Source: Endomicrobiales bacterium
GTDB lineage: Bacteria; Elusimicrobiota; Endomicrobiia; Endomicrobiales; JAFGGC01
Length of the DNA: 64,000 nt
NCBI GenBank assembly: GCA_016930715.1
Contig: JAFGGC010000013.1
Span: 135,796-199,795 of the forward strand
Reading direction: 5' to 3'
Part shown: in pieces, positions 5,147 to 42,116 of the stretch
Numbering within the stretch: position 1 is the first letter of the stretch
How the letters are laid out: each line of letters begins with the position of its first letter
Translations under genes and position numbers: made by a program
The notes under the pieces: model-generated
Databases searched by the model: none
Told to the model about the DNA's origin: nothing
Seen by the model: the letters and a program-made list of their open reading frames with translations, nothing else

Positions 5147-5175
5147 TTGAAATTTCGCCGGCAAAAGAGTATAAT
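5147..5175 (+). promoter_or_regulatory. Sigma-70-like promoter of the MoxR/Bat block
   Basis: TTGAAA (5147-5152), a 17-nt spacer, then TATAAT (5170-5175). A GGAGG Shine-Dalgarno at 5189-5193 precedes the GTG start at 5199. Confidence 0.55.
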
Positions 5176-5198: not shown

Positions 5199-6212
5199 GT
5201 GGCTGAAATTTCAGACAAAAAAGACACCGAGCTTGTTGACAAACTGCGGAAGGGATTCATCTCGATAAAGGCGCAGCTTTCCAAGATAATAGTGGGCCAG
5301 GAGCGCGTTATCGAGGAGATGCTCATATCGCTTTTCGGCCGCGGACACGTCCTAATAGTGGGGGTTCCGGGCCTTGCAAAAACGCTTCTGATTTCAAGCC
5401 TCGCTCAGATACTCGACCTCGAGTTCAAAAGAATACAGTTCACGCCGGACTTGATGCCCGCCGACATAACCGGAACCGAGATAATCGAGCAGGACCCGGG
5501 CACGGGGAAACGCACCTTCAGGTTCGTGAAAGGTCCTCTCTTCGGCCAGATAATACTTGCCGATGAAATAAACCGCACGCCCCCGAAGACCCAGGCCGCG
5601 CTTCTGCAGGCAATGCAGGAGTGCAGGATAACGGCGGCCGGCCAGACCTACGAGCTTAAACTTCCGTTTTTCGTGCTTGCCACGCAGAATCCCATAGAGC
5701 AGGAAGGAACGTACCCGCTTCCGGAAGCCCAGCTTGACAGGTTCTTCTTTCAGATTAACATGGATTATCCCTCATACGGCGAGGAAAAAACGATAGTCAC
5801 ACAGACCACGGGCACGTGGTCGCCGAAGCTGGAAAAAAGCCTGTCAAACAAGGAGATACTGGCGCTTCAGGACATAGTGCGGAAAGTGCCGGCGTCCGAC
5901 TACACGGTTGATTACGCGGTCAAGCTTGCCCGTGCTTCGAGGCCGAAGGAGGATTCCGCTCCGGACTTCGTGAAGCAGTTCGTCAGCTGGGGAGCCGGGC
6001 CCCGCGGGGCGCAGGCCCTTATAATCGGCGCGAAAGCGCGGGCCCTTTTGAACGGGCGCTACGCCGTGTCCTGCGACGACGTTAAGGCCGTGGCCTTTCC
6101 GAGCCTCAGGCACCGCATAATAGTCAATTTCAACGCGGAAGCCGAGGGTATTAGTTCAGAAGAAATAATAAGACGCCTGCTTGATAACGTCCAGCCCGAA
6201 CGTTCTGTATGA
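5199..6212 (+). CDS. MoxR-family AAA+ ATPase
   Basis: Walker A is VGVPGLAKT. Also seen are FTPDLMPADITG, ILADEINRTPPKTQAALLQAMQE, VLATQNPIEQEGTYPLPEAQLDRF. This is a classical MoxR (AAA_3) signature. Confidence 0.9.
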   Translation: MAEISDKKDTELVDKLRKGFISIKAQLSKIIVGQERVIEEMLISLFGRGHVLIVGVPGLAKTLLISSLAQILDLEFKRIQFTPDLMPADITGTEIIEQDPGTGKRTFRFVKGPLFGQIILADEINRTPPKTQAALLQAMQECRITAAGQTYELKLPFFVLATQNPIEQEGTYPLPEAQLDRFFFQINMDYPSYGEEKTIVTQTTGTWSPKLEKSLSNKEILALQDIVRKVPASDYTVDYAVKLARASRPKEDSAPDFVKQFVSWGAGPRGAQALIIGAKARALLNGRYAVSCDDVKAVAFPSLRHRIIVNFNAEAEGISSEEIIRRLLDNVQPERSV

Positions 6213-12268: not shown

Positions 12269-14305
12269 ATGATTTATTGGCCGTTGTTTCTCGTTTATTT
12301 CGTCCTGTACCTTTTTTCGCTTTCGCCGAGCATTTCGGTGGGAGATTCGGGCGAGCTCTGCGCCTCAAGCGTCATACTCGGCGTGGCGCACAGCCCGGGC
12401 TATCCGCTTTTTTCGCTTATCGGGAAAGCGGCGACCGTCATTGTCCCTTTCGGTAATCTTGCCTACAGAATCAATATATTGAGCGCTTTGTTCGGTGCTG
12501 CGTCCCTGGTGGTAATCATCAGCTCGTTTATGGCGGCGTTGAAATTCGAAAAGGAGAAGTTAGGTTTTTCAGAAGCGGGGGTTCTTCTCGTCGCGTCTCT
12601 CTTCGTGGGCGTATCTCCCGCTTTCTGGAGCTCGTCGGTCCAGTCCGAGGTATTCACCCTTAACGCCTTCATCGCCGCGCTTCTGATACGGGCGGTAGTC
12701 GCTGCGCGGTACGAGCTCGCGGCGTTTATCTTCGGCATCGGGCTCGGCAACCATCACACGCTCGTTTTCCTTTCGCCGCTGTTCATCTTCGCCTTTTCGG
12801 GAGCCGGCAGCGCGTTCAAAAAGTCGGCTGCCATGTTTTTCGCTTTTCTGCTGGGTTTCAGCGTCTACTTCTACCTTCCCGTGCGTTCCGCCAAGGACCC
12901 CGGGCTTGACTGGGGTAATGCCGAAACGCCGGCGAACATCCTGCGGGTCATAAGAAGAGCCGATTACGGGTCCTTGTCCCTGACGGTGGGAAAAAAGATA
13001 GAGAGAAACGTTTCGAACACTTTCCGCCAGATAATTGAGTTCGCCGCGTCAATGAACAGGCAGTTTACCGTTCTGGGCATCGCGCTCGGGCTGTTCGGCA
13101 TATACGCGGCGGTTAGGAAAAAGCACAGGTTTTTCAACGCCCTCGTCCTGATATGGTTCATCGCGGGTCCCGGGTTCGCGCTTCTTGCCAACATGCCGTT
13201 CACCGCCCAGACAAAAGGGGTGATGGAGAGGTTCCACGTTTTCACCAACCTTTTATGGTTTTTTCCGGTGGCTCTGGGACTGAATGAACTTGCCAGGAGC
13301 AGGTTCGGCGGCATGCTCCTGGTGCCGGCGGGCGCGGTAATGCTGGCGGCGGCGGTGCCGGTCCATAACCAAGTCACGATGAGGAACTATTACCTTGCCT
13401 ACGACTATGGCAAGAACCTCCTGAAGACCCTCGCTCCCGGTTCGGTCTTTTTTATGGACGGAGGCGACGACACATTCTACAGCATGGCTTATCTGTGTTT
13501 CGCAGAAAAGAGGCGGCAGGACGTAGAGCTTCACGACAGGGGCGGGCTCGTTTTTAAAAGCGTTTACGGGCCCGACTTCAGAAGGATCCCGCCGCAACTC
13601 AAGGAAAAGCGCAGGAACCGGGTCGAGATGACATATCTTGGCATGCGCCCGCTCTATTATTCGACTTTCAACGTCGAGGTAATGCCGGGCGTGAAAATGG
13701 TGCCGGACGGCGTGCTCTACAAGCCCGGGAGCCAAAAAGGCCCCAACACGATGGAGTTCTACAGCTTGAGGGGGGTTTTTGACGGTAGTTACAGCGACCA
13801 CAGGAGCAGGGCGCTGGTGCCGATATATCCTTTTTTCATGGAACTGGAAAGCGGTGATAAAGAAAAGTACAGATACTGGAACTTCGCGCGCCTTTCGTGG
13901 CCCGAGATAGGGTGGCTTTCAAACAATCTGAAAGTAGAGATGGTCCAGCGGGGGTACAGGCAGCTCGTCGCTGGACGATATGACGAAGCCGAAAGGACGT
14001 ACGATCTTCTTCTTGAATGGTTCCCGGACGAGAGTTCAGTGCTCGTTAACCTCGGAGTAATAAACGAAAAAAGGGGGGACGCCGAGGCGGCCAAAAAGCT
14101 GTACCTCAGGGCCATTGAGCTGGACCCGAAAATGGCCGACGCTTATTATAACTTGAGCGTGATATTCTGGCGAGAGAAAAACTGGGAGATGGTTGTCAAA
14201 AACCTCGAAAGGCTTCTTGATGTAAACCCGAAGGATGAAAGAGGCAGGCATTTTATGCCCCTTGCCGTCGAGAACCTCAGTAAAACAAAGGGAAACGTGA
14301 AGTGA
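12269..14305 (+). CDS. DUF2723 (TMEM260-like GT-C fold) glycosyltransferase fused to C-terminal TPRs, paralogue 1
   Basis: The first loop is SPSISVGDSGELCASSVILGVAHSPGYPLF. There are more than 8 TM segments and a C-terminal TPR region (NLGVINEKRGDAEAAKKLYLRAIELDPKMADAYYNLSVIFWREKNW). ATG at 12269 is preceded by GGAG at 12257-12260. The ORF-track start at 12170 overlaps the upstream gene. Confidence 0.75.
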   Translation: MIYWPLFLVYFVLYLFSLSPSISVGDSGELCASSVILGVAHSPGYPLFSLIGKAATVIVPFGNLAYRINILSALFGAASLVVIISSFMAALKFEKEKLGFSEAGVLLVASLFVGVSPAFWSSSVQSEVFTLNAFIAALLIRAVVAARYELAAFIFGIGLGNHHTLVFLSPLFIFAFSGAGSAFKKSAAMFFAFLLGFSVYFYLPVRSAKDPGLDWGNAETPANILRVIRRADYGSLSLTVGKKIERNVSNTFRQIIEFAASMNRQFTVLGIALGLFGIYAAVRKKHRFFNALVLIWFIAGPGFALLANMPFTAQTKGVMERFHVFTNLLWFFPVALGLNELARSRFGGMLLVPAGAVMLAAAVPVHNQVTMRNYYLAYDYGKNLLKTLAPGSVFFMDGGDDTFYSMAYLCFAEKRRQDVELHDRGGLVFKSVYGPDFRRIPPQLKEKRRNRVEMTYLGMRPLYYSTFNVEVMPGVKMVPDGVLYKPGSQKGPNTMEFYSLRGVFDGSYSDHRSRALVPIYPFFMELESGDKEKYRYWNFARLSWPEIGWLSNNLKVEMVQRGYRQLVAGRYDEAERTYDLLLEWFPDESSVLVNLGVINEKRGDAEAAKKLYLRAIELDPKMADAYYNLSVIFWREKNWEMVVKNLERLLDVNPKDERGRHFMPLAVENLSKTKGNVK

Positions 14306-16302
14306 AAACGTTGCTGGGCGCTCTGATTTTTCTGTCGGTCTTTGCCGTGTACCTGTCCACGATGACCCCCTCGCTGACGGACGACGATTCCGGCGAGTTG
14401 GCCGCGGTGGGTGCCGTGCTGGGAACCGCGCATTCGCCCGGATACCCTCTTTATTGCATGGTGTCGAAGTTATTCGCCGAAACGTTTCCTTTCGCGAACT
14501 ACGCATACAGGGTCAACCTTGTTTCGGCTTTTTTCATAGCTCTGGCGGCGCTGGTGGTTTTCCTGTTTTCCGGATTCATCGTGAAGGACGCGGCGGTCTC
14601 GGCCGCGGTCGCGATGATGTTCGCGTTCTCAAAATCGGTGTGGTCCATGGCAAACGTGACGGAGGTCTACGGCGTCGCGGCATTTTTCCTGTCGGTGATG
14701 CTGCTCGTAATGTTTGCCGGCGCCGGCGCGCGGGTGCTTCCGCTTTATCTTGCCTCTTTTGTCTTCGGTCTGGGGCTTCTAGCGCACTACACGATAGGAT
14801 TTTCAGTGTTCGGTCTCCTGTTGTGGGCGGTGTTCAACAAAAAGGAGCTCGTGTTGAAAAGGCCGGCGGCGCTTTTGAGCGCTTTTTTATGGGCGGCGGC
14901 AGGTTTTTCGGCGGTAATGTATATATACATCAGGGCGAAGGCCGCCCCGGTGGTGTCGTGGGAGGAGCCGGACACGCTGGAACGTTTCTGGCAGGTGGTG
15001 GCGCGTTTCAGGTACGGGACGGCGGCGCTCGCTCAGGGAGGCATGCCGCCGCTTGACCCCGCGACCATATGGCGGAAAACAGTTTTCTTCGTTAAAATGC
15101 TGTCGGAAAATTTCACTGTTTTCGGTTTTCTGTTGTTTCTTTTCGGGGTATTCGTTGCTTTAAAGGATAAAAGAACCGGCTGGCCGGTGCTCTTGATGCT
15201 TCTGGCGCTCGGCCCCGGCTTTCTTCTGGCGGCAAACGTCGGCATGGACCCGGGTTCGGCCGAACTCCTGAAGAGGTTCTTCTTTCTTTCCGTCATAGTT
15301 TCGCTGGCGCTCATCGCCAATGGCCTCGGAAAAATACCGGAAAAGGCGGCCAGGGTGTCTTTGTTCATACCGGTGTACCTGTTGTTTTTCAATTTCGGCC
15401 AGATGAACCACAGGAACGAATACGCCTTCAACGATTACGCGAAAAACATACTAAGGACCCTGCCCGAAGGCTCGCTGCTTTTCTGCGACAGGGCCGACGA
15501 GATGGAGTTTTGCCTCGGGTATTACATGTTCGCCGAGAACAGGAGGGCCGATACCGTCATAGTCGATTGCAACGCCGGCATAACAAGGAGCATCTACGGG
15601 CCCGGGTATTACCGCATCTGGGGTAAACCGCGGCTCGCGATAAGAAAGAAGGTCGAGTCGGAAATAATAAGAAAGACCGAAAGGCCGGTCTATTACGCCA
15701 CGTTCTATCCGGATATGATAGACATACCCCGTTATCCCGAAGGGCTGATATTCAGGGCAAAGCCCGGCGGAAGCTCAAAATTTCCCTGGTGGGAGACCTA
15801 CGCTTTGAGAAAACCGCAGGAAAAGAGCATGAGCGCCAGGACGAAAAGCCTGATAATTTCCAATTACTACATAATGAGCGAGTACGCGCTCGGTCTCGGC
15901 GACGCAAAAAAGGCCGAGGATTTTATCGCGGGCTTAAGAGCTTACGATGAAACAAAAAGATGGATGCCGACGGTCGCATACATGTTCCACAAGCGCGGAA
16001 TGCTAAAAGAGGCAAAGAGGTACTACGAAGAAGCGGACGCGTCGGGGCTGGAGGTGCCGCTGATTTACACGAACCTCGGCGTGATTCTTGAGTCCGAGGG
16101 TAAGTCCGAAGAGGCGCTTGCCGCGTACGAGAGGTCTGCCTCACTTGACCCTGAAAATCCGCAGGTCTTTTTCAACATAGCCGTGCTCTACTGGAGAAAA
16201 GGCGAGTGGGACAGGGTGATAGACAATCTGGAAAAGGTGATCGCCCTTGACCCCGGGAACGCCCGGGCGCGGGGGTATCTTGAACAGGCCAGGCAAAAGT
16301 AG
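14302..16302 (+). CDS. DUF2723-TPR glycosyltransferase, paralogue 2
   Basis: TPSLTDDDSGELAAVGAVLGTAHSPGYPLY, multi-TM, and C-terminal TPRs (NLGVILESEGKSEEALAAYERSASLDPENPQVFFNIAVLYWRKGEW). GTGA overlap with paralogue 1. Confidence 0.75.
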   Translation: MKTLLGALIFLSVFAVYLSTMTPSLTDDDSGELAAVGAVLGTAHSPGYPLYCMVSKLFAETFPFANYAYRVNLVSAFFIALAALVVFLFSGFIVKDAAVSAAVAMMFAFSKSVWSMANVTEVYGVAAFFLSVMLLVMFAGAGARVLPLYLASFVFGLGLLAHYTIGFSVFGLLLWAVFNKKELVLKRPAALLSAFLWAAAGFSAVMYIYIRAKAAPVVSWEEPDTLERFWQVVARFRYGTAALAQGGMPPLDPATIWRKTVFFVKMLSENFTVFGFLLFLFGVFVALKDKRTGWPVLLMLLALGPGFLLAANVGMDPGSAELLKRFFFLSVIVSLALIANGLGKIPEKAARVSLFIPVYLLFFNFGQMNHRNEYAFNDYAKNILRTLPEGSLLFCDRADEMEFCLGYYMFAENRRADTVIVDCNAGITRSIYGPGYYRIWGKPRLAIRKKVESEIIRKTERPVYYATFYPDMIDIPRYPEGLIFRAKPGGSSKFPWWETYALRKPQEKSMSARTKSLIISNYYIMSEYALGLGDAKKAEDFIAGLRAYDETKRWMPTVAYMFHKRGMLKEAKRYYEEADASGLEVPLIYTNLGVILESEGKSEEALAAYERSASLDPENPQVFFNIAVLYWRKGEWDRVIDNLEKVIALDPGNARARGYLEQARQK

Positions 16303-16374
16303 GGACAGACACCATTTTTAACAAATCCCACCCCGGAGGTGGGCTCGGTTACGTCCTCTATAAAGAAGTAAAAA

Positions 16375-18498
16375 ATGATTGCATTCTTTACAATCTTCAT
16401 CATTTATCTGATAACCCTTTTCCCGGGGCTTGCTCCCTACAGGGACACCGGTGAGATGGTGAGCGTCGCTCATACCCTTGGCGTTGCCCATCCCCCGGGC
16501 TATCCGTTTTACATACTTGTATCCAAGGTGTTCATGGCGGTGCTAGGGCTCGGCAACCTTGCCTGGAGGATGAACGTCCTTTCCGCGCTTGCCGGGGCGC
16601 TGGCCGTCTGGGCGGTGTACCGGTTGTTCCTTGGGATGAAACTGACAAGGACGGCGTCGTTTTTTCTTTCCGTGCTTTTCGGCACGTCCTACCTGCAGTG
16701 GTACCTTTCGCTGGTTCAGGAGATGTACACCTTGAACATCCTTTTCGCTTCTGTTCTGATACTTCTTGTCCACCGCGCGGTTTCGTCCGGCGCGCCCTCG
16801 GCCATTGCGAAACGCCTGTATTTCATCTCGTTCATCTTCGGGATCGGACTCGGCTGCAGGATGGACCTCCTGATGCTTGCCCCGGGCCTCGTCTTCATAG
16901 TCTTCTCTAAAAGAAAGGAGCTTAAAGCCGCCAACATAGCCGCGGCGTTACTGTTTTTCGGCGCCGGGTTTTCGGTATACCTCTACCTTATGCTGCGCTC
17001 GGGGCTCTACCCGATGATAGACTGGAACCATCCCGGGACTTTCAAGGGCCTGTTGTCCTCGCTGATGAGAAAGACGCACGGCGGCACGCTGGACCTGATC
17101 TCTACCAACTACGCTCCAGGCGAGAATTTTATTTCGACGTTGGGTTTTTACTTCGCTCATCTCGCGAGGGGGTCCGCCTATGCCGGGCTCGCGCTCGGCG
17201 CTTTCGGCGCGTGGCATTCGTTCAGGCGGAACTGGGTTTTCGCCGTTTTCCTCCTTGCCTCGTGGTTTTTTTCGGGACCGCTTTTCATATACCTTGCAAA
17301 CATGCCGCCGAACCCTCACGCGCTGGCCATACTTGAGGCGCATTTTCTTCTTCCGAACCTTTTTTTCGCGGTGTGGATTGGCGAAGGGTTCTTGTTCCTC
17401 TGGCCGCGTATCGCAAGGATACACGGCTGGCTGCCCGCCGCCGCGGTTCTTTGCCTCGTTCTTTTGAACCTGAAGCTGCACTGCGCCGAACTTAACAAGC
17501 GGGACAATTTCATAGCTTACGATTACTCGAAAAACGTTCTCAGGTCTCTTCCGAAGGGCTCCGTCGTAGTGATGAAAAAAGACGTCCAGCTTTTTTCAGT
17601 GTGGAACAAGCAGTTCGTGGAGAAAAAAAGGCCCGACCTACTTCTCGTGAGCCAGGGCCTGGCCGGTTCACCGTGGTACCAGAAGGTATTTCACAAGTAC
17701 AGGGAGCCGCTGTTTCTGTGCCGGCTCGACGAGCCGGAGGACTGGGCAAGGTTTGCGGCGCTCAATCCGTCAAAGAGGATATTCCATTCGCTTGACGCAG
17801 ACTACAGGCATCCGGACGGCTACGCGCAGACCGGGCACGGCCTAGTGGCGGAAACGTCGAAAGAAAATGATGCCGGGACTTCAGGCGTGCTTCTTGAGCA
17901 CGTATACCCTTTCAGGGGAAAGTACGATTATCCGGCGTACAGGGAGTTCTTCACGCCAGACCTGATAGAGGAATACGTTAAGGCGTTTCTTAATTTCGGA
18001 ATAAACGAGATGAACGGGGGCAGGAGCGAAAGGGCCCTGAAAAACATGGAACAGGCGCTGGCCTTCAAGCCGCTTTTTCCCATAGCGGACAACTACATTG
18101 CTTTCATCCATTTCAACGCCGGCAGGCACGGCCGGGCTGAAGAAAGCTACGTCAAGGCCGCGCGCGGCTACGGCGAGATGGTGGAGCTGGCCGAAAAATA
18201 CAACGCTCTGGAGTCCGTTGCCAGCTCGATGAAGCGAAGCCTTTCGGACGTCTACATTTCGCTCGGCGTCTGCAGGGAAAAGGCCTCCGACGACGGCGGC
18301 GCGCTGGGGTTTTACACGAAGGCCCTTGAATCGGACCCGTCCCAGGCCCGGGCGTATTTCAACAGGGCGGTCATTTACTGGAAGAAAAACGACTGGAGGA
18401 AGGTCGTCGCGGAGCTTGAAAACGCTCTCAGGATCAACCCGAACTACGCCGAAGCGGCCTATTACCTCGAACAGGCGAAGAACAGGTTAAGGAACTGA
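16375..18498 (+). CDS. DUF2723-TPR glycosyltransferase, paralogue 3
   Basis: FPGLAPYRDTGEMVSVAHTLGVAHPPGYPFY, multi-TM, and C-terminal TPRs (FYTKALESDPSQARAYFNRAVIYWKKNDW). Confidence 0.75.
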   Translation: MIAFFTIFIIYLITLFPGLAPYRDTGEMVSVAHTLGVAHPPGYPFYILVSKVFMAVLGLGNLAWRMNVLSALAGALAVWAVYRLFLGMKLTRTASFFLSVLFGTSYLQWYLSLVQEMYTLNILFASVLILLVHRAVSSGAPSAIAKRLYFISFIFGIGLGCRMDLLMLAPGLVFIVFSKRKELKAANIAAALLFFGAGFSVYLYLMLRSGLYPMIDWNHPGTFKGLLSSLMRKTHGGTLDLISTNYAPGENFISTLGFYFAHLARGSAYAGLALGAFGAWHSFRRNWVFAVFLLASWFFSGPLFIYLANMPPNPHALAILEAHFLLPNLFFAVWIGEGFLFLWPRIARIHGWLPAAAVLCLVLLNLKLHCAELNKRDNFIAYDYSKNVLRSLPKGSVVVMKKDVQLFSVWNKQFVEKKRPDLLLVSQGLAGSPWYQKVFHKYREPLFLCRLDEPEDWARFAALNPSKRIFHSLDADYRHPDGYAQTGHGLVAETSKENDAGTSGVLLEHVYPFRGKYDYPAYREFFTPDLIEEYVKAFLNFGINEMNGGRSERALKNMEQALAFKPLFPIADNYIAFIHFNAGRHGRAEESYVKAARGYGEMVELAEKYNALESVASSMKRSLSDVYISLGVCREKASDDGGALGFYTKALESDPSQARAYFNRAVIYWKKNDWRKVVAELENALRINPNYAEAAYYLEQAKNRLRN

Positions 18499-20168
18499 TG
18501 GATAACAGGAAAGCGCAGGTTATAACGCTGTTATTATTTATCGCGGCGCATTTGGCGCTCGGGATGTACGCCGCGGGCAGGCTTTCGCCGACCTACGACG
18601 AGCACATACATCTTGCCTCCGGATACACGTATTTGAAACTCAACGACTACAGGCTGAATACCTCCGACCATCCGCCTTTCTCGGAGATGTGGGCGGCGCT
18701 TCCGCTTCTTTTTATGGGGCCTTCGGTGCCGGTGCATCATCCCTACTGGGAGAAGGCAAGAAAGCACCAGTACGCGTTCTCGGACATATTCGTTTACCAC
18801 AACAGGGTCGACCCGGAAAAGATGCTCAAAGCGGGCAGGGCGATGACCCTGCTTCTTTCGCTCGCGCTGGGTTTCCTGGTTTTCAAGTGGGCGAAGGATC
18901 TTTTCGGCACGCGTTCCGGGTTTCTTGCTCTCGCGTTATGGTGTTTCATGCCCGTTTTCCTGGCAAACGGCATGCTTGTTACGACCGACACGGCCATGAC
19001 GCTGTTCTATTTTTCAACCGTTTACTTTCTGTGGTTGTGGACGAAAAGCGCCAAAAGGAAGGGCAGCGGCTACAGAAGGGACGCGGTCCTTTTAGGCGCG
19101 TCTTTGGGTCTTCTTTTCGCGTCGAAATATTCCGCGCTCGCGATGCTGCCGGTTGCGGCGGCGATACTGGCGGCGTTCTACGTCGAGGAAAAAAAGGTAG
19201 ACCCGAGGTTCACCGTTTCGCTTTTCATAGCCGCCGCCTCCGCGGTGATAGTGCTGGAATTGGTTTACAGGTTCAATCCGCTCGGCCCGTACTTTTTCTA
19301 CGGCCTGAAAAGGGTGCTCTCCGGCGTCGCGTCCGGAAGGTCGAGTTTCCTGATGGGCGACCATTCAACCACCGGCTGGTGGTATTATTTCCCGGTCGTG
19401 TTCTTTTTCAAGACGCCCGCGGGTTTTCTGGCGCTTCTTGCGGCGTCGTTTTTCAGAAAAGAAATGTACCGGAAGGAGTACGCGCTGTTTCTGCTCCTTC
19501 CTGCGCTGTTTTATTTTGCCGTAAGCTGTTTTTCGAAAGTCCAGATAGGCCAGAGGCACATAATGCTGGTGTATCCGTTCCTTATAGTATGGGTATCGGG
19601 TCTTCTGGCGGAAGGCGCGGGGAAGGCCGCTAAGGTGTTCGTGGCCGCGATGCTGGTTTTTTTCGTCGTTTCGGCCGTGAAAGCGCGTCCGTGGTACCTG
19701 TCGTACTGCAACGAATTCGTCCCTTCGGGCAGGGGACACGAATATTTCACCGATTCCAATCTCGACTGGGGCCAGGGATTGAAAGAATTATCCCGATACC
19801 TGAAAGACAGGAATTCGGGCGGCATATATATGTGCTATTTCGGCACGGGCGACCCGTCATACTACGGAATAAGGTACCGGCCCATAGGTTTCATCGACAA
19901 CATAAGCGATACGGAGGCGCGCGACCTCAGACGCGGAGACAGGATAGATTTTTCAAGGCAAGCCGATGTCCTTTTCGCGATCTCCGCCACGAACCTTCAG
20001 GCGACGTACTACAAGGACAAGGGGGTATTCTCCTTTTTAAAGGATGTCGTTCCCGAAGCGGTCGTCGCGCGTTCCATATTCGTTTATGACCTTACAAAGA
20101 ACAAGCGGGCATTTTTGGAACTGACGAACCTTATCAAGGCAGTGAGAGGAGAACAAAATGGACATTAG
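18498..20168 (+). CDS. GT-C fold glycosyltransferase, PMT_2/ArnT-like (GT39/GT83-like)
   Basis: The first-loop acidic motif is SPTYDEHIHLASGYTYL. There are more than 10 TM segments and a soluble C-terminal domain. The 1-nt overlap (TGATG) links it to paralogue 3. Confidence 0.65.
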   Translation: MDNRKAQVITLLLFIAAHLALGMYAAGRLSPTYDEHIHLASGYTYLKLNDYRLNTSDHPPFSEMWAALPLLFMGPSVPVHHPYWEKARKHQYAFSDIFVYHNRVDPEKMLKAGRAMTLLLSLALGFLVFKWAKDLFGTRSGFLALALWCFMPVFLANGMLVTTDTAMTLFYFSTVYFLWLWTKSAKRKGSGYRRDAVLLGASLGLLFASKYSALAMLPVAAAILAAFYVEEKKVDPRFTVSLFIAAASAVIVLELVYRFNPLGPYFFYGLKRVLSGVASGRSSFLMGDHSTTGWWYYFPVVFFFKTPAGFLALLAASFFRKEMYRKEYALFLLLPALFYFAVSCFSKVQIGQRHIMLVYPFLIVWVSGLLAEGAGKAAKVFVAAMLVFFVVSAVKARPWYLSYCNEFVPSGRGHEYFTDSNLDWGQGLKELSRYLKDRNSGGIYMCYFGTGDPSYYGIRYRPIGFIDNISDTEARDLRRGDRIDFSRQADVLFAISATNLQATYYKDKGVFSFLKDVVPEAVVARSIFVYDLTKNKRAFLELTNLIKAVRGEQNGH

Positions 20169-21096
20169 CATCGTAATCCCGGTTTTCAACGAAAAGGGCA
20201 CGATAGAGGAGCTCTACGGGAAAATCAACAATGCCGTTAAAAATTTCCGTGAGATAATTTTCGTGGACGACGGCTCGTCGGACGGCAGTACGGAGATAAT
20301 CAGGGGGATCGCTTCCAAAGACAAAAAGGCGAGGGCGGTCGTCCTTTCAAGGAACTACGGGCAGACGGCCGCGCTCTCCACGGGTTTCTTGTGCGCGACG
20401 GGCGAATTCGTCGTGACGCTGGACGCCGACCTTCAGAACGACCCGGCGGACATACCGGAGCTGGTCAGGAAGGCGGAGGAGGGCTGGGACGTGGTTTCCG
20501 GATGGAGAAAAAAAAGGCAGGACCCTTTTTTAGCCAAGCAGCTGCCGAGCGCCGTCGCCAACGTGCTTATTTCGTCGATAACCGGAGTGCGGCTTCACGA
20601 TTACGGGTGCACCCTGAAGGCGTACAGGAGGAGTTTGCTTGAAAATCTCGTTCTGTACGGCGAGATGCACAGGTTCCTTCCGGCATACCTGGCCTGGAAC
20701 GGCGCCAGGATATGCGAGCTTTCGGTGAGCCATCACGCCAGGCGTTACGGCGAGTCCCATTACGGCCTTGAACGCGTGTTCAAGGTGGTGCTCGACCTTC
20801 TTGTCGCGAAATTTCTGCTTTCATACATCACCAAACCGATATACGTTTTCGGGGGGATGAGCCTTGTGTTTTTCCTGCTAAGCCTTCTGACCGGCGCGGC
20901 CGTGGTGGCAAGAAAGGTTTTTTACGAAGGACAATGGATAAGTCCTTTGATATTCGTATGTTTCTTTCTTGCCGGTGTTTCAGTGCTGTGCCTTCTTATG
21001 GGTTTTCTTGCCGAGATAATGACTAGGATATACTTCGAGGCCCGGAAGACGCCTCCGTGCGTCATCAAAGAAAAGATCAATTGTGAGCGGAATTGA
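20158..21096 (+). CDS. GT2 polyprenol-phosphate glycosyltransferase (GtrB/ArnC/Dpm1-like)
   Basis: SIVIPVFNE, FVDDGSSDGS, RNYGQTAA, LDADLQNDPADIPELV and GWRKKRQDPF, with two C-terminal TMs. This is the typical lipid-carrier sugar synthase layout. Confidence 0.85.
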   Translation: MDISIVIPVFNEKGTIEELYGKINNAVKNFREIIFVDDGSSDGSTEIIRGIASKDKKARAVVLSRNYGQTAALSTGFLCATGEFVVTLDADLQNDPADIPELVRKAEEGWDVVSGWRKKRQDPFLAKQLPSAVANVLISSITGVRLHDYGCTLKAYRRSLLENLVLYGEMHRFLPAYLAWNGARICELSVSHHARRYGESHYGLERVFKVVLDLLVAKFLLSYITKPIYVFGGMSLVFFLLSLLTGAAVVARKVFYEGQWISPLIFVCFFLAGVSVLCLLMGFLAEIMTRIYFEARKTPPCVIKEKINCERN

Positions 21097-24000
21097 CCTT
21101 CTTATCGGAAAAGCAAGAATAAGGCTTCTGGCGTCGCGGGCGGCGGAATACGCGTCCGGATGGCTGTTGTGGAATTTTTCGGCACTTGTCCTGTGGATCC
21201 TCTGCGATCTGATTTTTGTCCTTGACCCCCTTTCCAGAAAATCCTTCTATTTTGCGAGCGCGGCGATACTGCTTGCCTGGCTGTTGAGGTTCGCGCGCTC
21301 CGTTTCAGGCGGAAGGCTTTCCGAAAAAAACATACTCGTGCTGGTCGGGGAGAGGGCGCCCGATCTGGGGGACGGGCTCGTGAGCTCGTGGCAGTTGTCG
21401 CGCGCGGGAACGTCCGGTGTTTCGAGGGAACTGATAGAAACCCACGGGGAAAGAATAAATGAAAAGATCAGAAGGACGGATTTAGGCGCTGTCATACCGC
21501 TGGTCACCAAAAAAACGGCCCTGTACCTGAAGGTAATAATTCCGGCCGTTTTTCTGGCAGGAACGCTTGTCTGCGCGCCGCCGGGGGTATTGAGGGCGCC
21601 GTTTCTAAGGGTCGCGAAATCTCTTTTTCCTGCAGACTGGAGGGAATGGCTGGCGGTCGAGCCGCGCAGCGCCTCGGTCCCTTCCGGCAGCGCGGTCACG
21701 GTGAAACTCGAAAAGAAACAGGCCATTCAGGGGATTCCGCGCCTCTGGATAAGGACCGAACGAGGCCCGTGGACGAAAAACGATTTTACTTTCGCGGGAA
21801 AAGGTTCGTACTATTTCGAGATGGAAAAAATAGTATCCGAAACCGAGTACTACGCGGTCCTGGGCGACATCGAAACGGAGCGGTTCGTGCTCAAGCCCGT
21901 GACCTTTCCTAAACTCGGGAACTTTAGGATAAGCGTCCTGTATCCTTCATACACGGGGCTGACGGAGCCGGTGTTTTCTGAGAATCCGAATATCTCCGCG
22001 CCTGCCGGTTCAACTGTCAGGATAGCGGCCGAATCGGACAAGCCGCTTGCCGGGGTCGCCGTAAAAACAAGCTGGGGCGCGAGGCCAGCCGTCAAGCGCG
22101 GCAAGCGGAAACTTGATTTTAGTTTCACGATAAGCAAGGATGGCGATTTCAGGATACTGGCCGTCGGCGCCGACGGCGCGCGGGATCCCGATCCGGCGCG
22201 GTACCAGGTTTCGGTTCTGCGGGATGACACCCCGGACGTCAGGATCGTTTCGCCGGATGGCGACCTTCTCGTTTCAGAAGGCGCCGGGATACCGGTGATA
22301 ATCAGCGCTTCGGATGATTTCGGCGTTACGGGGATAGACGTGGTGTACAGGATTGACGGCGCGGGCGAGCGCAGGATAAATGTCGCGAAGTATCACGCCG
22401 CCAGAGAGTTCAGCGTGAACCTTGAACATATCTTAAAACCATCTTCGTTGGGCGTGAGGCCTGGCGGGAAAATAGCGTACTACGCCCAGGCGTTCGATAA
22501 CGACACCGTGTCTGGGCCGAAATCGTCCGTTTCCGCGCCGAGGAACGTTGAGGTCACGGATTCGATGAACGAGCACGAAAAGATCGAAGCCGGCGTAAAG
22601 GATCTCAGAGACTCCCTTCTGAACCTTCTGGCGGACCAGATGCAGGCGCGGGAGAAGACCGAGAAGCTTGAAGTGCGTTTTTCCTCGCGGGCCTATTCCG
22701 GCGCGCTGGAACTCCAAAAAAGAATCCTGGACAACGCGCGCAAGGGCTCTGACGGGCTTTCAGAACTGGTTTCAAGGATGGAACGCGACCCGTACACGGA
22801 TTTTTCAACGTTTTCAGAGTACAGAGGCATGAAGTCGCACCTTGATTACGTAAGGGACGATTTGATGCAAAAAGCGCAAGACGCCCTTGAAAGAAAGGAT
22901 TTCAGCGGCGCGGGGCTGAACCAGAAAGAGGCCGTGGCCGAGCTGGAAAAGATTTCACTCCTTGCGGAGGATATATTCGAATACCAGAAGATGCGGGACT
23001 TGCTGGCGAGCGCCGATGACCTGCACAGGAGGGTCTCGGATTTCAAGAGCGCCCTCAATGATTCCAGAGACGGCGCGGCCATGAAGGATGCATACGGCAG
23101 GATACAAGAACTGCTCGAAAAAATAAACGTGCAGCTGTCCAGGCTCGGCAGCGAACTGCCGGAGGATTTCGTGAATTCCCCGGCCGTCAAAAAGATCGAC
23201 ATGAACGAGTACCGCGACCTCTCCAAAAGGCTCGAGGATGCGATCGAAAACGGCAATTTAGAAGAGGCCGGAAAACTTGCCGAGGAATTCGAGAAAAGCC
23301 TCAAGAACCTTTCCGAAATGCTGGATTTGGCGGGAAAGAATATAGGTTTTTCTTCGTCGCTCAGCGCGGAGCTGTCTGAAAAGATAGAACGGTACAGGGC
23401 CGAACTTTCAAGAATAATAGACGAGCAGGAACAGATAACGTCCAGGACCGAGAAGCTCAATTCGCTTTATGAGGAGTTGCTGAACCGGGAACAGGAAAAA
23501 CTTTTTCCCGAGCTTGCCAGGAAACAGAAGAAACTGGTAAATTCGGCGGAATCCTCCAGGGAAGCTTTTCTCAAAGCCGGGACGTGGAAAATGGGAGAAA
23601 CATTGAAGCTGATGAGTAAGGTGCTTGAAGAATTCGAGGGGAAAAGAGCCTTTAATTCTCAAAAATATCTCAAGGACATCATAGACAACATGGAAGAGGC
23701 GAAAAAGCGCGTTGAGAAAGACGAACCGCTTTCCGCCAAAGCCGCCGGGATCGCGAATGGCGAAAAGGAGATACTTGAAATCCTTAAAAATGAAACCGAA
23801 CAAATCCCTTTCGGCCCTTCCGACAGGAAAAAGATGGGAGAATTAAAGGACGATCAGTCCCGTCTTTCCCGGGACACCAGGAAACTCCGCGAATCGGCCG
23901 GCGAATTCACGCGGAAAAGCATGTTGATGGATCCTTCGGTTTTCATGAACCTCAAGATGGCGGAGTACAGCATGAACGGCGCCGCCTCCGGCCTGTCGGA

Positions 24001-24316
24001 AGAGAAAATACCCAGTGCGCTTGAAAACTCGAGGCTCGCGCTTGAATACCTGAAAGGGACCGGAGAGGCTTTCCAGTCGGCCGGGTCGGGGTTGTCGGAC
24101 ATGCAGAAAAAAGCGGGGACTCCCGTGACGGGCCTTATAAAGATAAAACGGGGCGGAATGACCGGTTTTTCGGCCCAACCGGTGAAGCTTCCGGGGATAG
24201 AGGATTATAAACCTCCCCGGGAGTTCAGACAGGAGATAATGGAAGCCCTGAGGGAAAAATACCCTCAGGAATACGAAAAGATGATCAAGGAATACTACAG
24301 GAAACTCACGGAGTGA
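21083..24316 (+). CDS. DUF4175-like large envelope protein (2 N-terminal TMs, beta-rich region, long coiled coil)
   Basis: Two N-terminal TMs, an Ig-like middle region and a roughly 450-aa E/K/L-rich coiled coil. The C-terminus EFRQEIMEALREKYPQEYEKMIKEYYRKLTE is as I recall for DUF4175 members of Bat-type operons. The GTG start overlaps the GT2 gene. Confidence 0.55.
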   Translation: MSGIDLLIGKARIRLLASRAAEYASGWLLWNFSALVLWILCDLIFVLDPLSRKSFYFASAAILLAWLLRFARSVSGGRLSEKNILVLVGERAPDLGDGLVSSWQLSRAGTSGVSRELIETHGERINEKIRRTDLGAVIPLVTKKTALYLKVIIPAVFLAGTLVCAPPGVLRAPFLRVAKSLFPADWREWLAVEPRSASVPSGSAVTVKLEKKQAIQGIPRLWIRTERGPWTKNDFTFAGKGSYYFEMEKIVSETEYYAVLGDIETERFVLKPVTFPKLGNFRISVLYPSYTGLTEPVFSENPNISAPAGSTVRIAAESDKPLAGVAVKTSWGARPAVKRGKRKLDFSFTISKDGDFRILAVGADGARDPDPARYQVSVLRDDTPDVRIVSPDGDLLVSEGAGIPVIISASDDFGVTGIDVVYRIDGAGERRINVAKYHAAREFSVNLEHILKPSSLGVRPGGKIAYYAQAFDNDTVSGPKSSVSAPRNVEVTDSMNEHEKIEAGVKDLRDSLLNLLADQMQAREKTEKLEVRFSSRAYSGALELQKRILDNARKGSDGLSELVSRMERDPYTDFSTFSEYRGMKSHLDYVRDDLMQKAQDALERKDFSGAGLNQKEAVAELEKISLLAEDIFEYQKMRDLLASADDLHRRVSDFKSALNDSRDGAAMKDAYGRIQELLEKINVQLSRLGSELPEDFVNSPAVKKIDMNEYRDLSKRLEDAIENGNLEEAGKLAEEFEKSLKNLSEMLDLAGKNIGFSSSLSAELSEKIERYRAELSRIIDEQEQITSRTEKLNSLYEELLNREQEKLFPELARKQKKLVNSAESSREAFLKAGTWKMGETLKLMSKVLEEFEGKRAFNSQKYLKDIIDNMEEAKKRVEKDEPLSAKAAGIANGEKEILEILKNETEQIPFGPSDRKKMGELKDDQSRLSRDTRKLRESAGEFTRKSMLMDPSVFMNLKMAEYSMNGAASGLSEEKIPSALENSRLALEYLKGTGEAFQSAGSGLSDMQKKAGTPVTGLIKIKRGGMTGFSAQPVKLPGIEDYKPPREFRQEIMEALREKYPQEYEKMIKEYYRKLTE

Positions 24317-34437: not shown

Positions 34438-34466
34438 TTGACAAAGGGTGAATTCTCTGCTAAAAT
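34438..34466 (+). promoter_or_regulatory. Near-consensus sigma-70-like promoter of the kinase block
   Basis: TTGACA (34438-34443), a 17-nt spacer, then TAAAAT (34461-34466). It sits 64 nt upstream of the ATG at 34531, which is preceded by GAGAGG. Confidence 0.6.
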
Positions 34467-34530
34467 TTTTGTTGCGACCCGTTTTTGCTTTGAATTTCAG
34501 TCTTTTTTTAAGCGAGAGGTATATACCGGT

Positions 34531-37755: not shown

Positions 37756-37817
37756 AAAAATTGGATGCCCTGCTTGACCCGGTTCCGGCCGGAACGGTCG
37801 GCGGGGGGAGGATACAG

Positions 37818-40120: not shown

Positions 40121-40123
40121 AAA

Positions 40124-41167: not shown

Positions 41168-41178
41168 GTAAGTATCTT

Positions 41179-41291: not shown

Positions 41292-41312
41292 AGATTTTAA
41301 AAAGAGGTATTT

Positions 41313-42107: not shown

Positions 42108-42116
42108 CAAGAACGT

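What the first reader, a model, noticed from the sequence alone, without database searches (positions are those of the whole stretch)
12269..21096. Three tandem DUF2723(TMEM260-like)-TPR paralogues plus a PMT_2-like GT-C enzyme and a polyprenol-phosphate sugar synthase
Seen in sequence:
- Three consecutive 666-711-aa genes share the first-loop motif D-[ST]-G-E followed by G.AH.PGYP[LF][FY] (GDSGE..AHSPGYPLF, DDDSGE..AHSPGYPLY, RDTGE..AHPPGYPFY).
- All three end in the same TPR pair (...YWRK/YWKK/FWRE..W..V...LE..L..[DN]P).
- They are diverged, not recent copies.
- They are followed without gaps by a GT-C enzyme with a YDE first-loop motif and by a GtrB/Dpm1-like GT2.

Established knowledge:
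- GT-C enzymes use lipid-phosphate sugars made by GT2 synthases and act on the extracytoplasmic side.
- Human TMEM260 (the DUF2723 founder) was recently shown to O-mannosylate IPT/Ig-like domains.
- TPRs in TMTC/OGT-type enzymes select protein substrates.

Inference: this is a self-contained periplasmic protein O-glycosylation locus with three substrate-specific transferases. The bacterial function of DUF2723 is, to my knowledge, uncharacterised. Ig-like/PEGA-rich envelope proteins in this same window are candidate substrates.
Basis: partly seen in the sequence, partly recalled or inferred. Interest (0 to 1): 0.7.

Follow-up and report, generated by a model that had tools for sequence, protein, structure and literature searches.

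The report
Three TMEM260-like glycosyltransferases inside MoxR/Bat operon
An uncultured Elusimicrobiota bacterium carries three anciently duplicated bacterial relatives of the human protein O-mannosyltransferase TMEM260 with the catalytic residues intact, and they are a conserved part of a MoxR/Bat-type envelope operon, which gives a testable lead on two gene sets of unknown bacterial function.

Summary
Window 12269-21096 encodes three TMEM260-like (Pfam PF11028, CAZy GT117) GT-C enzymes with C-terminal TPRs (P1-P3, 26-33% identical to each other), a PMT_2/ArnT-like GT-C (P4) and an ArnC/GtrB-like polyprenyl-phosphate sugar synthase (P5).

All three paralogues align with the human TMEM260 cryo-EM sequence (E 1e-31 to 1e-35). 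They keep D52, H67, R264 and the catalytic base D441. The P3 lineage has lost R355 in all 118 homologues and usually has His in place of Y267; both are sugar contacts, so P3 may bind a different donor sugar.

The main new result is context. The block is not free-standing. In the Elusimicrobiota loci examined the order is MoxR-DUF58-BatA-DUF4159-GATase1-like-P1-P2-P3-(PMT_2)-DUF4175-Peptidase_MA/TPR, down to about 32% identity. P5 is found only in this genome's version.

Best reading: periplasm-facing, lipid-phosphate-sugar-dependent protein O-glycosyltransferases tied to the Bat-type envelope module. Acceptors are unknown. No human-type sequon and no Ser/Thr-rich segment was found, and nothing links the downstream PEGA/Ig proteins to the block. 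This is a new variant of a known kind, of moderate to high interest.

The parts
5147..5175 (+). Best sigma-70-like promoter match (TTGAAA-17-TATAAT, 11 of 12) just upstream of MoxR; possible operon start
   Evidence: a consensus match only
5199..6212 (+). MoxR-type AAA+ ATPase (AAA_3, AAA_lid_2)
   Evidence: Pfam AAA_3 4e-61; 65-78% identical orthologues at the head of the cluster in L002, L004, L006, L007, L010
6331..7203 (+). DUF58 protein
   Evidence: Pfam DUF58 9e-44; syntenic in related loci
7305..9299 (+). BatA-type protein: N-terminal double-TM anchor, VWA domain, C-terminal TM. The large domain is predicted to be periplasmic.
   Evidence: Pfam BatA 1e-16 and VWA_2 3e-11, TIGR02226; TM segments; start as called in L001; the VWA domain of Borrelia BB0173 is periplasmic (PMC5700661)
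9296..10042 (+). DUF4159 protein with an N-terminal signal-like hydrophobic segment
   Evidence: Pfam DUF4159 4e-33; fused to BatA in L013 and L014
10063..12207 (+). GATase1-like membrane protein (two N-terminal TM helices, large extracytoplasmic part); always directly upstream of P1
   Evidence: Pfam GATase1_like 2e-12; P1 follows it in 13 of 13 related loci
12269..14305 (+). P1: GT117/TMEM260-like GT-C glycosyltransferase with a Rossmann-like domain and TPRs (678 aa)
   Evidence: PF11028 5e-25; 9rql E 3e-32; AF2 pLDDT 94.7 and Foldseek GT-C and TPR matches; equivalents of D52, H67, R264, Y267, R355 and D441 all kept
14302..16302 (+). P2: GT117/TMEM260-like GT-C with TPRs (666 aa)
   Evidence: PF11028 4e-20; 9rql E 7e-31; all six functional residues kept; base loop DRADE[MT][ED]F
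16375..18498 (+). P3: GT117/TMEM260-like GT-C with TPRs (707 aa) and an altered sugar pocket (Y267 to H, R355-F356 to A-H)
   Evidence: PF11028 5e-24; 9rql E 7e-35; residue pattern in 7 syntenic orthologues and 118 homologues
18498..20168 (+). P4: PMT_2/ArnT-like GT-C enzyme (556 aa) with an invariant T-x-D-E first loop, no MIR domain and no TPR
   Evidence: PMT_2 2.6e-11; AF2 pLDDT 95.8; Foldseek ArnT 6e-8 and Pmt4 4e-7; invariant T32, D34, E35, D164, K210, R353; syntenic in 9 of 10 loci that reach it
20158..21096 (+). P5: GT2 polyprenyl-phosphate sugar synthase (ArnC/GtrB/Dpm1 type) with a C-terminal TM pair; an accessory of this genome's cluster
   Evidence: Glycos_transf_2 3e-33; ArnC 8e-52, GtrB 2e-30, DPMS 5e-17 in the PDB; absent from the other loci
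21083..24316 (+). DUF4175 membrane protein (1077 aa; N-terminal TM helices, weak Ig-like Big_7 hit, long helical region)
   Evidence: Pfam DUF4175 9e-17; follows the GT block in L002, L005, L006, L009, L010, L012-L015
24358..25926 (+). Peptidase_MA_2 plus TPR protein with an N-terminal signal-like segment; conserved end of the cluster
   Evidence: Pfam Peptidase_MA_2 2e-11 plus TPRs; same position in L012 and L014

Best explanation
P1, P2 and P3 are catalytically competent bacterial members of the TMEM260 family (CAZy GT117). They are inner-membrane GT-C enzymes whose first-loop Asp/His, Rossmann-like domain and TPR domain face the periplasm.

Proposed mechanism:
- Each enzyme takes a single sugar from a polyprenyl-phosphate-sugar donor. 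In this genome the donor is probably made by the adjacent ArnC/GtrB-like GT2, P5.
- Each transfers the sugar to Ser or Thr on an extended stretch of a Sec-translocated protein.
- The TPRs hold the acceptor, and the Asp equivalent to human D441 acts as the general base.
- P3 keeps the phosphate contact and the base but has replaced two sugar-contact residues. It probably binds a different sugar, or binds the sugar differently.

The three genes arose by an ancient triplication. Usually together with the ArnT/PMT-like P4, they form a fixed internal module of a MoxR-DUF58-BatA-DUF4159-GATase1-like ... DUF4175-Peptidase_MA/TPR envelope operon in Elusimicrobiota. The most likely role is therefore modification of, or joint action with, that operon's large periplasm-exposed membrane proteins.

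What is shown: family membership, fold, residue conservation, triplication and synteny. What is inferred: periplasmic orientation, lipid-linked donor, protein acceptor and the link to Bat-type proteins.
For: Family and catalytic apparatus:
- PF11028 scores above the gathering cut-off in all three.
- phmmer E-values of 3e-32, 7e-31 and 7e-35 against human TMEM260 cover residues 29-479.
- D52, E55, H67, E144, R264 and D441 are invariant in every orthologue examined. The cryo-EM preprint 10.64898/2026.03.17.711096 assigns these residues to donor binding, phosphate binding and general base.

Fold:
- The P1 model (pLDDT 94.7, pTM 0.93) has a TM core, an alpha/beta domain and TPR helices.
- Foldseek matches GT-C enzymes (ALG12 1e-5, ALG9, ArnT, STT3) and peptide-binding TPRs (OGT, CHIP, SGT).
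- Two TPR position-6 asparagines (N594, N628) are at least 90% conserved across 80 homologues.

Donor supply:
- P5 aligns over its full length with ArnC, GtrB and DPMS and overlaps P4 by 11 nt.

P3 pocket:
- Among 118 P3 homologues, position 355 is never Arg (A 82, P 35, V 1), position 356 is His in 109, and position 267 is His in 85 and Tyr in 32.
- All 113 P1-type sequences keep R..Y[GS].

Synteny:
- The same gene order occurs in L002, L004-L006, L009, L010 and L012-L015 at 25-50% identity, often with overlapping stop and start codons.
- Orthogroup trees have parallel topologies.

Topology: a BatA-type VWA domain has been shown experimentally to be periplasmic (PMC5700661).

Precedent: in the streptococcal Pgf system, substrate adhesins are encoded in the same cluster as the GT2 and GT-C enzymes (PMC12041528).
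Against: - There is no direct evidence for any acceptor.
- The core of the human sequon (P-x2-GG-x3-[ST]) is absent from all 48 window proteins.
- No cluster protein has a Ser/Thr-rich segment.
- The TPR region could not be aligned to human TMEM260, so equivalence of the Asn ladder is not shown.
- P4's best structural match (ArnT) and P5's best sequence match (ArnC) both come from a lipid A modification pathway.
- Two related loci carry a diacylglycerol-glycolipid-type GT28 in P5's slot, which could point to a lipid or glycan acceptor.
- Operon membership shows a functional link, not a substrate relationship.
- Exceptions exist: L008 shows P1 followed directly by a P3-type gene, and L014 lacks P4.
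Confidence: 0.55

Rival explanations
1. P1, P2 and P3 (perhaps with P4) form one obligate hetero-oligomeric glycosyltransferase, as yeast Pmt1-Pmt2 do. They would act on one class of acceptor rather than being three independent substrate-specific enzymes. P3 may be a specialised or partly regulatory subunit.
For: The three genes are inherited as a fixed, ordered and often translationally coupled block in 10 loci, with parallel orthogroup phylogenies. Independent substrate-specific enzymes would be expected to be gained and lost more freely. P3 has an altered sugar pocket.
Against: All three keep a complete set of catalytic residues, including the base. Each has its own conserved base-loop signature, which suggests distinct acceptor pockets. 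The passages of the human TMEM260 preprint that I read describe the enzyme without mentioning a partner subunit. L008 shows P1 next to a P3-type gene with no P2 between them. No multimer prediction could be run here.
Confidence: 0.3
2. The GT-C enzymes modify a non-protein envelope acceptor, such as lipid A or LPS core, a glycolipid or a cell-wall glycan. The TPR domains would serve only to dock the enzymes onto the Bat-type complex.
For: P4 is closest in fold to ArnT and P5 is closest in sequence to ArnC. An MGDG-synthase-like GT28 occupies P5's slot in L005 and L015. No sequon or Ser/Thr-rich candidate acceptor was found.
Against: For P1-P3 the only characterised homologue is a protein O-mannosyltransferase. 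Its Rossmann-like-domain base (D441) and TPR module, which there bind an extended peptide, are conserved. P4 scores about as well against Pmt4 and STT3 as against ArnT. Some P4 homologues carry TPR fusions.
Confidence: 0.2
3. One reading: a self-contained, general periplasmic O-glycosylation locus whose three enzymes serve Ig-like or PEGA-rich envelope proteins encoded further along the window.
For: Human TMEM260 modifies Ig-like IPT domains (PMC10214176). The window does encode a PEGA-containing Ser/Thr kinase and a FlgD_ig protein with a Ser/Thr-rich stretch.
Against: Those genes lie more than 13 kb downstream, past CCA/polyA polymerase, TrpRS and ScpA/B, with no evidence of conserved linkage. 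The block is embedded in another conserved operon. The GT2 is not conserved with it. No TMEM260-type sequon was found.
Confidence: 0.1

Closest known systems
Human TMEM260 (CAZy GT117; PDB 9rql, 9rqm, 9rqn), an ER protein O-mannosyltransferase for IPT domains
   Same: Same Pfam family. Nearly the same length (666-707 aa against 707) and the same domain order: GT-C TM core, Rossmann-like domain, TPR. D52, E55, H67, E144, R264 and D441 are conserved in all three paralogues, and Y267 and R355 in P1 and P2.
   Different: Bacterial, so presumably periplasmic and using undecaprenyl-phosphate rather than dolichyl-phosphate donors. Triplicated. P3 has lost R355 and usually Y267. No IPT-type sequon occurs in the window. 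The genes are encoded inside a MoxR/Bat-type operon. Sugar and acceptor are unknown.
Streptococcal Pgf (PgfS, PgfM1, PgfM2) and GtrB/PgtC2 protein O-glycosylation systems
   Same: Same logic: a GT2 makes a Und-P-monosaccharide, and a GT-C enzyme transfers it to Ser or Thr of extracytoplasmic proteins. In Pgf, multiple GT-C paralogues and the substrates sit in one cluster (PMC12041528). P5 hits the NCBIfam PgfS model at 7e-42.
   Different: Those GT-C enzymes belong to the YfhO family, not GT117, and lack TPRs. Their acceptors are Ser/Thr-rich disordered regions, and none is present in this cluster.
ArnC/ArnT (lipid A aminoarabinose modification) and the PMT/GT39 protein O-mannosyltransferases, compared with P4 and P5
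   Same: P5 aligns over its full length with ArnC (8e-52). P4 has a GT-C fold closest to ArnT and Pmt4 and a PMT-like D-E pair in the first loop.
   Different: P5 scores far below the ArnC equivalog cut-off (205 bits against 529). P4 lacks the MIR domain of PMTs and has its own conserved C-terminal periplasmic domain (TDSNLDWGQGLK). No other arn genes are present.
Bat (Bacteroides aerotolerance) / MoxR-DUF58-VWA operons, for example Borrelia BB0170-0176 and Rhizobium RL3499-RL3502
   Same: The host cluster has the MoxR AAA+ ATPase, DUF58 and BatA-type double-TM VWA proteins. The title of the Rhizobium study cited links that operon to cell morphology and envelope integrity.
   Different: I found no described Bat/MoxR operon that contains GT-C glycosyltransferases. 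In Elusimicrobiota a GT117 x3 (+ GT39-like) block sits between the GATase1-like and DUF4175 genes.
TMTC1-4 (GT105) O-mannosyltransferases
   Same: They are GT-C cores with TPRs that take a lipid-linked sugar donor and act on proteins (PMC7801869).
   Different: Different family. TMTCs have a DD motif in the first loop rather than DSGE...AHxPGYP, and lack the Rossmann-like domain. A separate TMTC-like gene may lie at 26844-28634.

Membership tests
GT117 / TMEM260-like (PF11028) | Significant match to the family HMM above the curated cut-off | tested here: met
   88.7, 72.6 and 85.6 bits against a cut-off of 24.2; phmmer against 9rql gives 3e-32, 7e-31 and 7e-35
GT117 / TMEM260-like (PF11028) | GT-C transmembrane fold (about 11 TM helices) | tested here: met
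   P1 AF2 model with pLDDT 94.7; Foldseek matches ALG12, ALG9, ArnT and STT3 at E 1e-5 to 8e-4. Only P1 was modelled; P2 and P3 are inferred from the alignment. 9rql itself is not in the Foldseek library.
GT117 / TMEM260-like (PF11028) | First-loop sugar-recognition motif: the D52 and H67 equivalents | tested here: met
   Invariant in 32 P1, 7 P2 and 7 P3 sequences, and in every one of the 118 P3 homologues with a residue aligned there
GT117 / TMEM260-like (PF11028) | Donor contacts R264 (phosphate), Y267 and R355 (mannose) | tested here: inconclusive
   P1 and P2 keep all three. The P3 lineage keeps R264 but never has R355 (A or P), and 72% have H at position 267. So the feature is met for P1 and P2 and not met for P3.
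GT117 / TMEM260-like (PF11028) | Luminal or periplasmic Rossmann-like domain carrying the catalytic base D441 | tested here: met
   The Asp is invariant in all orthogroups. The P1 model has an alpha/beta domain at residues 376-500.
GT117 / TMEM260-like (PF11028) | C-terminal TPR domain with an Asn ladder that binds an extended acceptor peptide | tested here: inconclusive
   TPRs are present, and N594 and N628 (TPR position 6) are at least 90% conserved. The human TPR sequence could not be aligned, so residue equivalence is not shown.
GT117 / TMEM260-like (PF11028) | Transfer of mannose from polyprenyl-phosphate-mannose to Ser or Thr of a protein | not testable with these tools
   Needs biochemistry or glycoproteomics
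PMT / GT39 protein O-mannosyltransferase (P4) | D-E pair in the first extracytoplasmic loop | tested here: met
   T32, D34 and E35 are invariant in 67 homologues
PMT / GT39 protein O-mannosyltransferase (P4) | MIR (beta-trefoil) domain in the large luminal loop | tested here: not met
   There is no MIR hit in Pfam. The 556-aa model has only a C-terminal alpha/beta domain. P4 should therefore not be filed as a PMT proper.
ArnT / GT83 (P4) | GT-C fold with a C-terminal periplasmic domain, closest structural neighbour | tested here: met
   5ezm and 5f15 are the top Foldseek hits (E 6e-8 and 4e-7, TM about 0.5). Pmt4, ALG9 and STT3 score similarly, so this does not discriminate.
ArnT / GT83 (P4) | Lipid A acceptor and co-occurrence with the arn pathway | tested here: not met
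   No other arn genes are in the window. P5 scores below the ArnC equivalog cut-off. Acceptor chemistry is not testable here.
Polyprenyl-phosphate glycosyltransferase, ArnC/GtrB/Dpm1 type (P5) | GT2 GT-A domain with a DxD motif plus a C-terminal TM hairpin, and full-length similarity to solved members | tested here: met
   Glycos_transf_2 3e-33. ArnC 8e-52, GtrB 2e-30 and DPMS 5e-17, each over nearly the full length. 'LDADLQ' is visible in the translation. TM segments at 233-251 and 264-282.
MoxR/Bat-type envelope operon (host cluster) | MoxR AAA_3 ATPase, DUF58 and a BatA-N double-TM VWA protein in one co-directional cluster | tested here: met
   AAA_3 4e-61, DUF58 9e-44, BatA 1e-16 with VWA_2 3e-11, and TIGR02226

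The most novel reading that the evidence does not exclude
The GT117 triplet, with the GT39/ArnT-like P4, is a dedicated maturation machinery that site-specifically O-glycosylates the large periplasmic proteins of the MoxR/Bat-type envelope complex (BatA-VWA, DUF4159, GATase1-like, DUF4175). P3 would add a different sugar from P1 and P2. That would be a bacterial, domain-specific O-glycosylation pathway homologous to the metazoan TMEM260 pathway. It would also be the first biochemical handle on the enigmatic Bat/MoxR-VWA operons.
Probability: 0.25. Interest if true: 0.8.

Novelty: new variant of a known kind. Interest (0 to 1): 0.6.

Why it matters
TMEM260 was recognised as a protein O-mannosyltransferase only in 2023, and its structure is a 2026 preprint. 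The 2023 paper notes only 'distant homologs in bacteria', and I found no study of a bacterial member. Yet the family has about 13,000 representative clusters at 50% identity.

These Elusimicrobiota proteins keep the complete catalytic apparatus. They are therefore tractable bacterial models for GT117 mechanism and evolution. The P3 lineage is a natural variant of the sugar pocket.

The conserved insertion into a MoxR-DUF58-BatA-DUF4159-DUF4175 operon links two sets of genes of unknown function. It also suggests a concrete experiment: express the operon and look for gene-dependent glycosylation of its own periplasmic proteins. If confirmed, it would show that domain- or site-specific O-glycosylation by GT-C/TPR enzymes predates eukaryotes, and that Bat-type envelope complexes are glycoproteins.

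Tried and rejected
- **Human sequon scan.** I scanned all 48 window proteins for the human TMEM260 sequon P-x6-P-x3-P-x2-GG-x3-T and its core P-x2-GG-x3-[ST]. There were no hits, so the human sequon cannot be used to nominate substrates.
- **Ser/Thr-rich segments.** I scanned cluster and downstream proteins for streptococcal-type Ser/Thr-rich segments. No cluster protein has one. Only the distant FlgD_ig protein reaches 52% S+T in a 25-residue window.
- **Foldseek against the PDB.** This was meant to score P1 against TMEM260 itself, but 9rql is not in that library. Only general GT-C and TPR matches were obtained, so the TMEM260 comparison rests on sequence.
- **Aligning the TPR region to human TMEM260.** phmmer aligns only residues 29-479, so Asn-ladder equivalence is unresolved.
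- **Looking for the arrangement outside Elusimicrobiota.** The one clearly non-Elusimicrobiota P4 homologue (Riflebacteria, L011) is not in such a cluster. Cluster-member names for 10 distant GT117 representatives gave almost no taxonomy, and representative-search hits cannot be used for context look-ups. The distribution in other phyla therefore remains open.
- **Literature.** Among the papers returned by the DUF4159/DUF4175/BatA/MoxR query, none contains DUF4159 or DUF4175. The GT117 and DUF2723 searches returned only the TMEM260 papers.
- **Rejected: P1-P3 as non-catalytic TPR scaffolds.** Every catalytic residue is under strong conservation.
- **Rejected: the 12170 TTG as the start of P1.** The ATG at 12269 is preferred.
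- **Terminator scan.** Terminator-like sites are not enriched (35 found against 29.8 expected), so no internal operon boundary can be claimed.

Full report

Yes. Five co-directional ORFs lie on the + strand at the stated positions.

| Gene | Coordinates | Length (aa) |
|---|---|---|
| P1 | 12269-14305 | 678 |
| P2 | 14302-16302 | 666 |
| P3 | 16375-18498 | 707 |
| P4 | 18498-20168 | 556 |
| P5 | 20158-21096 | 312 |

The longest P1 ORF opens at a TTG at 12170. The junctions are -4, +72, -1 and -11 nt.

- Pfam assigns P1-P3 to PF11028 'TMEM260-like' (E 5e-25, 4e-20, 5e-24) plus C-terminal TPRs.
- P4 matches PMT_2 (2.6e-11) and P5 matches Glycos_transf_2 (2.9e-33).
- Pairwise identity among P1-P3 is 26-33% over the full length. 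P4 has no detectable sequence similarity to them.

The source is an Endomicrobiales (Elusimicrobiota) metagenome-assembled genome. NCBI already labels these proteins 'DUF2723 domain-containing', and labels relatives 'glycosyltransferase family 117 protein' or 'protein O-mannosyl-transferase family'.

**2. Are P1-P3 real TMEM260-type enzymes?**

The human TMEM260 cryo-EM chains (9rql, 9rqm, 9rqn) are in the PDB sequence set. The non-TPR parts of P1, P2 and P3 match them at E 3e-32, 7e-31 and 7e-35 over human residues 29-479.

The 2026 preprint (10.64898/2026.03.17.711096) describes this architecture:
- a GT-C core of 11 TM helices (residues 24-415);
- a luminal Rossmann-like domain (416-564);
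- a TPR domain (565-706) that binds an extended acceptor peptide.

It assigns these roles: D52, H67, Y267 and R355 contact the mannose, R264 contacts the phosphate, and D441 is the catalytic base.

I rebuilt the human segment from the HMMER alignments, verified its numbering, and aligned it with the window proteins and their orthologues.
- D52, E55, H67, the PGYP motif, E144, R264 and D441 are invariant in 32 P1-type, 7 P2-type and 7 P3-type sequences.
- Each orthogroup has its own conserved sequence around the base: P1 FFMDGGDDTFY, P2 DRADE[MT][ED]F, P3 [KR][EK]DV[QP]LF.

An AlphaFold2 model of P1, built from 80 sequences, has pLDDT 94.7 and pTM 0.93. It shows a TM helical core, an alpha/beta domain (about residues 376-500) and TPR helices (548-675). 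Foldseek against the PDB returns GT-C enzymes (ALG12 E 1e-5 with TM 0.57 on the target, ALG9, ArnT, STT3). For the C-terminus it returns peptide-binding TPR domains (OGT, CHIP, SGT). 9rql is not in that structural library, so the direct comparison with TMEM260 rests on sequence.

**3. The P3 lineage has a different sugar pocket.**

In the window and in all seven syntenic orthologues, P3 reads R[KR][TS]HGG where P1, P2 and human read R..YG (Y267 to H). It reads EAH[FY] where the others read [ED]RF (R355-F356 to A-H).

In 118 P3-type homologues from the large database:
- position 355 is never Arg (Ala 82, Pro 35, Val 1);
- position 356 is His in 109;
- position 267 is His in 85 and Tyr in 32;
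- D52, H67, R264 and D441 remain invariant wherever a residue is aligned.

All 113 P1-type sequences keep R..Y[GS].

The two lost residues are sugar contacts in the human enzyme. R355A leaves about 20% activity and Y267A abolishes it. The simplest inference is that P3 is active but binds a different sugar, or binds the sugar in a different pose. This is inference and was not tested.

**4. Age of the triplication.**

Each protein from the related loci scores about 1.3-2.6 times higher against its cognate window paralogue than against the other two. An NJ tree rooted on human TMEM260 recovers P1, P2 and P3 as clades, with bootstrap 100, 73 and 100. Their internal topologies are parallel. The branching order among the three is unresolved (P2+P3 63%). 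The triplication therefore predates the divergence of the sampled Elusimicrobiota, and the three genes have been inherited together.

**5. Context: the block is part of a larger conserved operon.**

Upstream, on the same strand and tightly spaced:
- MoxR AAA+ ATPase, 5199-6212 (AAA_3, 4e-61);
- DUF58, 6331-7203;
- a BatA-type double-TM VWA protein, 7305-9299;
- DUF4159, 9296-10042;
- a GATase1-like membrane protein, 10063-12207.

Downstream:
- DUF4175, 21083-24316;
- a Peptidase_MA_2-TPR protein, 24358-25926.

The best promoter-like site lies just before MoxR, and terminator-like sites are not enriched.

Thirteen related loci were examined: nine Elusimicrobiota MAG loci from the genome collection (L002-L010) and four contigs recovered through database homologues (L012-L015). 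Their proteins are only 25-50% identical to the window's.
- P1 directly follows the GATase1-like gene in 13 of 13 (L004 has an IS200-type insertion between them).
- P1-P2-P3 occur in order in 10 loci.
- A PMT_2 gene follows P3 in 9 of the 10 loci that reach that point.
- DUF4175 follows in nine loci, and Peptidase_MA/TPR follows where contigs extend that far.

Exceptions:
- L014 lacks PMT_2.
- L008 shows P1 followed directly by a P3-type gene.
- L007 is interrupted by a restriction-modification island after P2.
- L004 and L006 have unrelated insertions between P1 and P2, a PAS histidine kinase and a subtilase respectively.

The GT2 (P5) was found in none of the other loci. In L005 and L015 an MGDG-synthase-like GT28 sits between PMT_2 and DUF4175 instead. 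The 'self-contained locus' is therefore specific to this genome. The conserved unit is the GT117 triplet, usually with P4, inside the MoxR/Bat-type cluster. A Riflebacteria homologue of P4 is not in such a cluster.

**6. P4 and P5.**

The P4 model (pLDDT 95.8) is a GT-C enzyme. It is closest to ArnT (E 6e-8) and Pmt4 (4e-7), followed by ALG9 and STT3, all at TM about 0.5.
- It has an invariant T-x-D-E first loop, D164, K210, R353 and a conserved C-terminal periplasmic motif, TDSNLDWGQGLK.
- It has no MIR domain, so it is not a PMT proper.
- Its acceptor cannot be read from the fold.
- A few homologues carry C-terminal TPRs.

P5 aligns over its full length with ArnC (8e-52), GtrB (2e-30) and archaeal Dpm1 (5e-17). 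It is far below NCBIfam's ArnC cut-off. It is a polyprenyl-phosphate sugar synthase of unknown sugar specificity.

**7. Acceptors.**

Nothing tested identifies them. The core of the human sequon is absent from the whole window (sequon taken from 10.64898/2026.09.21.753134). No cluster protein has a Ser/Thr-rich segment of the streptococcal type.

By hydrophobicity and charge, the BatA-like, GATase1-like and DUF4175 proteins are membrane-anchored with large extracytoplasmic parts, and DUF4159 has a signal-like N-terminus. A Borrelia BatA-type VWA domain has been shown experimentally to be periplasmic (PMC5700661). These proteins therefore share a compartment with the GT-C active sites. The streptococcal pgf cluster gives a precedent for substrates encoded next to their GT2 and GT-C enzymes (PMC12041528). 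This makes the cluster proteins the best candidates, on circumstantial evidence only.

**8. Comparison with what is known.**

Family-level annotation as GT117 already exists. The 2023 discovery paper says only that TMEM260 has 'distant homologs in bacteria' (PMC10214176). My literature searches found no study of a bacterial member, and no paper linking GT-C enzymes to Bat/MoxR operons.

The family is large: 13,035 representative clusters at E<=1e-3 and 570 at E<=1e-30.

What appears to be new:
- full conservation of the TMEM260 catalytic apparatus in bacteria;
- an ancient, co-inherited triplication, with one lineage carrying a remodelled sugar pocket;
- fixed placement inside a MoxR-DUF58-BatA-DUF4159-GATase1-like ... 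DUF4175 operon.

**9. Verdict.**

It is a new variant of a known kind: GT-C/TPR protein O-glycosyltransferases.

| Claim | Probability |
|---|---|
| P1-P3 are active periplasm-facing GT-C transferases | about 0.85 |
| Their acceptors are proteins | about 0.6 |
| Their acceptors are encoded in the cluster | about 0.25-0.3 |

Interest is 0.6.

Noticed in passing
window 26844-28634 (+): A 596-aa protein with about 8-9 TM helices and C-terminal TPRs. Its first loop, 'FVNLDDDVLVTGNP', resembles the strictly conserved DD motif of TMTC-type GT-C O-mannosyltransferases (PMC7801869). Pfam and PDB sequence searches find nothing for its TM part. It may be a fifth GT-C enzyme, 5.7 kb downstream of the block.
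   Followed up: partly
L005 14258-15376 and L015 17951-19063: An MGDG-synthase-like GT28 gene occupies the slot between PMT_2 and DUF4175, where the window has its GT2 Und-P-sugar synthase. Other loci have nothing there. The slot seems to collect different cytoplasmic-face lipid glycosyltransferases.
   Followed up: partly
L013 2253-5090 and L014 1435-4257: BatA (double-TM plus VWA) and DUF4159 are fused into one protein of about 940 aa. This supports a physical association between the two proteins that are separate in the window (7305-9299 and 9296-10042).
   Followed up: no
window 16327-16343 (P2-P3 intergenic gap): A perfect 7-bp G+C-rich hairpin, CCCACCC-CGG-AGGTGGG (its reverse complement as listed), lies in the only sizeable gap inside the GT block. 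No T-run follows it on the + strand. Its function is unknown, and its conservation was not checked.
   Followed up: no
window 34438-45881 (+): A co-directional signalling and envelope set: a Ser/Thr kinase with PEGA and CarboxypepD_reg domains; two proteins with no Pfam match (37761-38915, 40124-41167); a FlgD_ig protein with a T9SS-like C-terminal tail and a 52% Ser/Thr stretch; an FHA plus FG-GAP beta-propeller protein; and a PP2C phosphatase. No link to the GT block was found.
   Followed up: partly
P0152, P0163, P0162 (homologues of P4): Some P4-type (PMT_2/ArnT-like) GT-C proteins carry C-terminal TPR repeats (617-738 aa). This hints that the P4 family can also recognise protein partners or acceptors.
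   Followed up: no
L006 12088-15021; L004 9004-9972 and 13082-15616; L007 14390-21493: Unrelated genes are inserted inside the otherwise conserved cluster: a subtilase with a CHU_C tail, an IS200-type transposase and a PAS histidine kinase/response regulator, and a type I restriction-modification island. The operon tolerates insertions between the GT117 genes.
   Followed up: partly
window 49848-51584 and 51290-52618 (+): Two long same-strand ORFs overlap by about 295 nt; the first is a DUF5693 protein. This could be a mis-set start codon or a real overlap. It was not examined.
   Followed up: no
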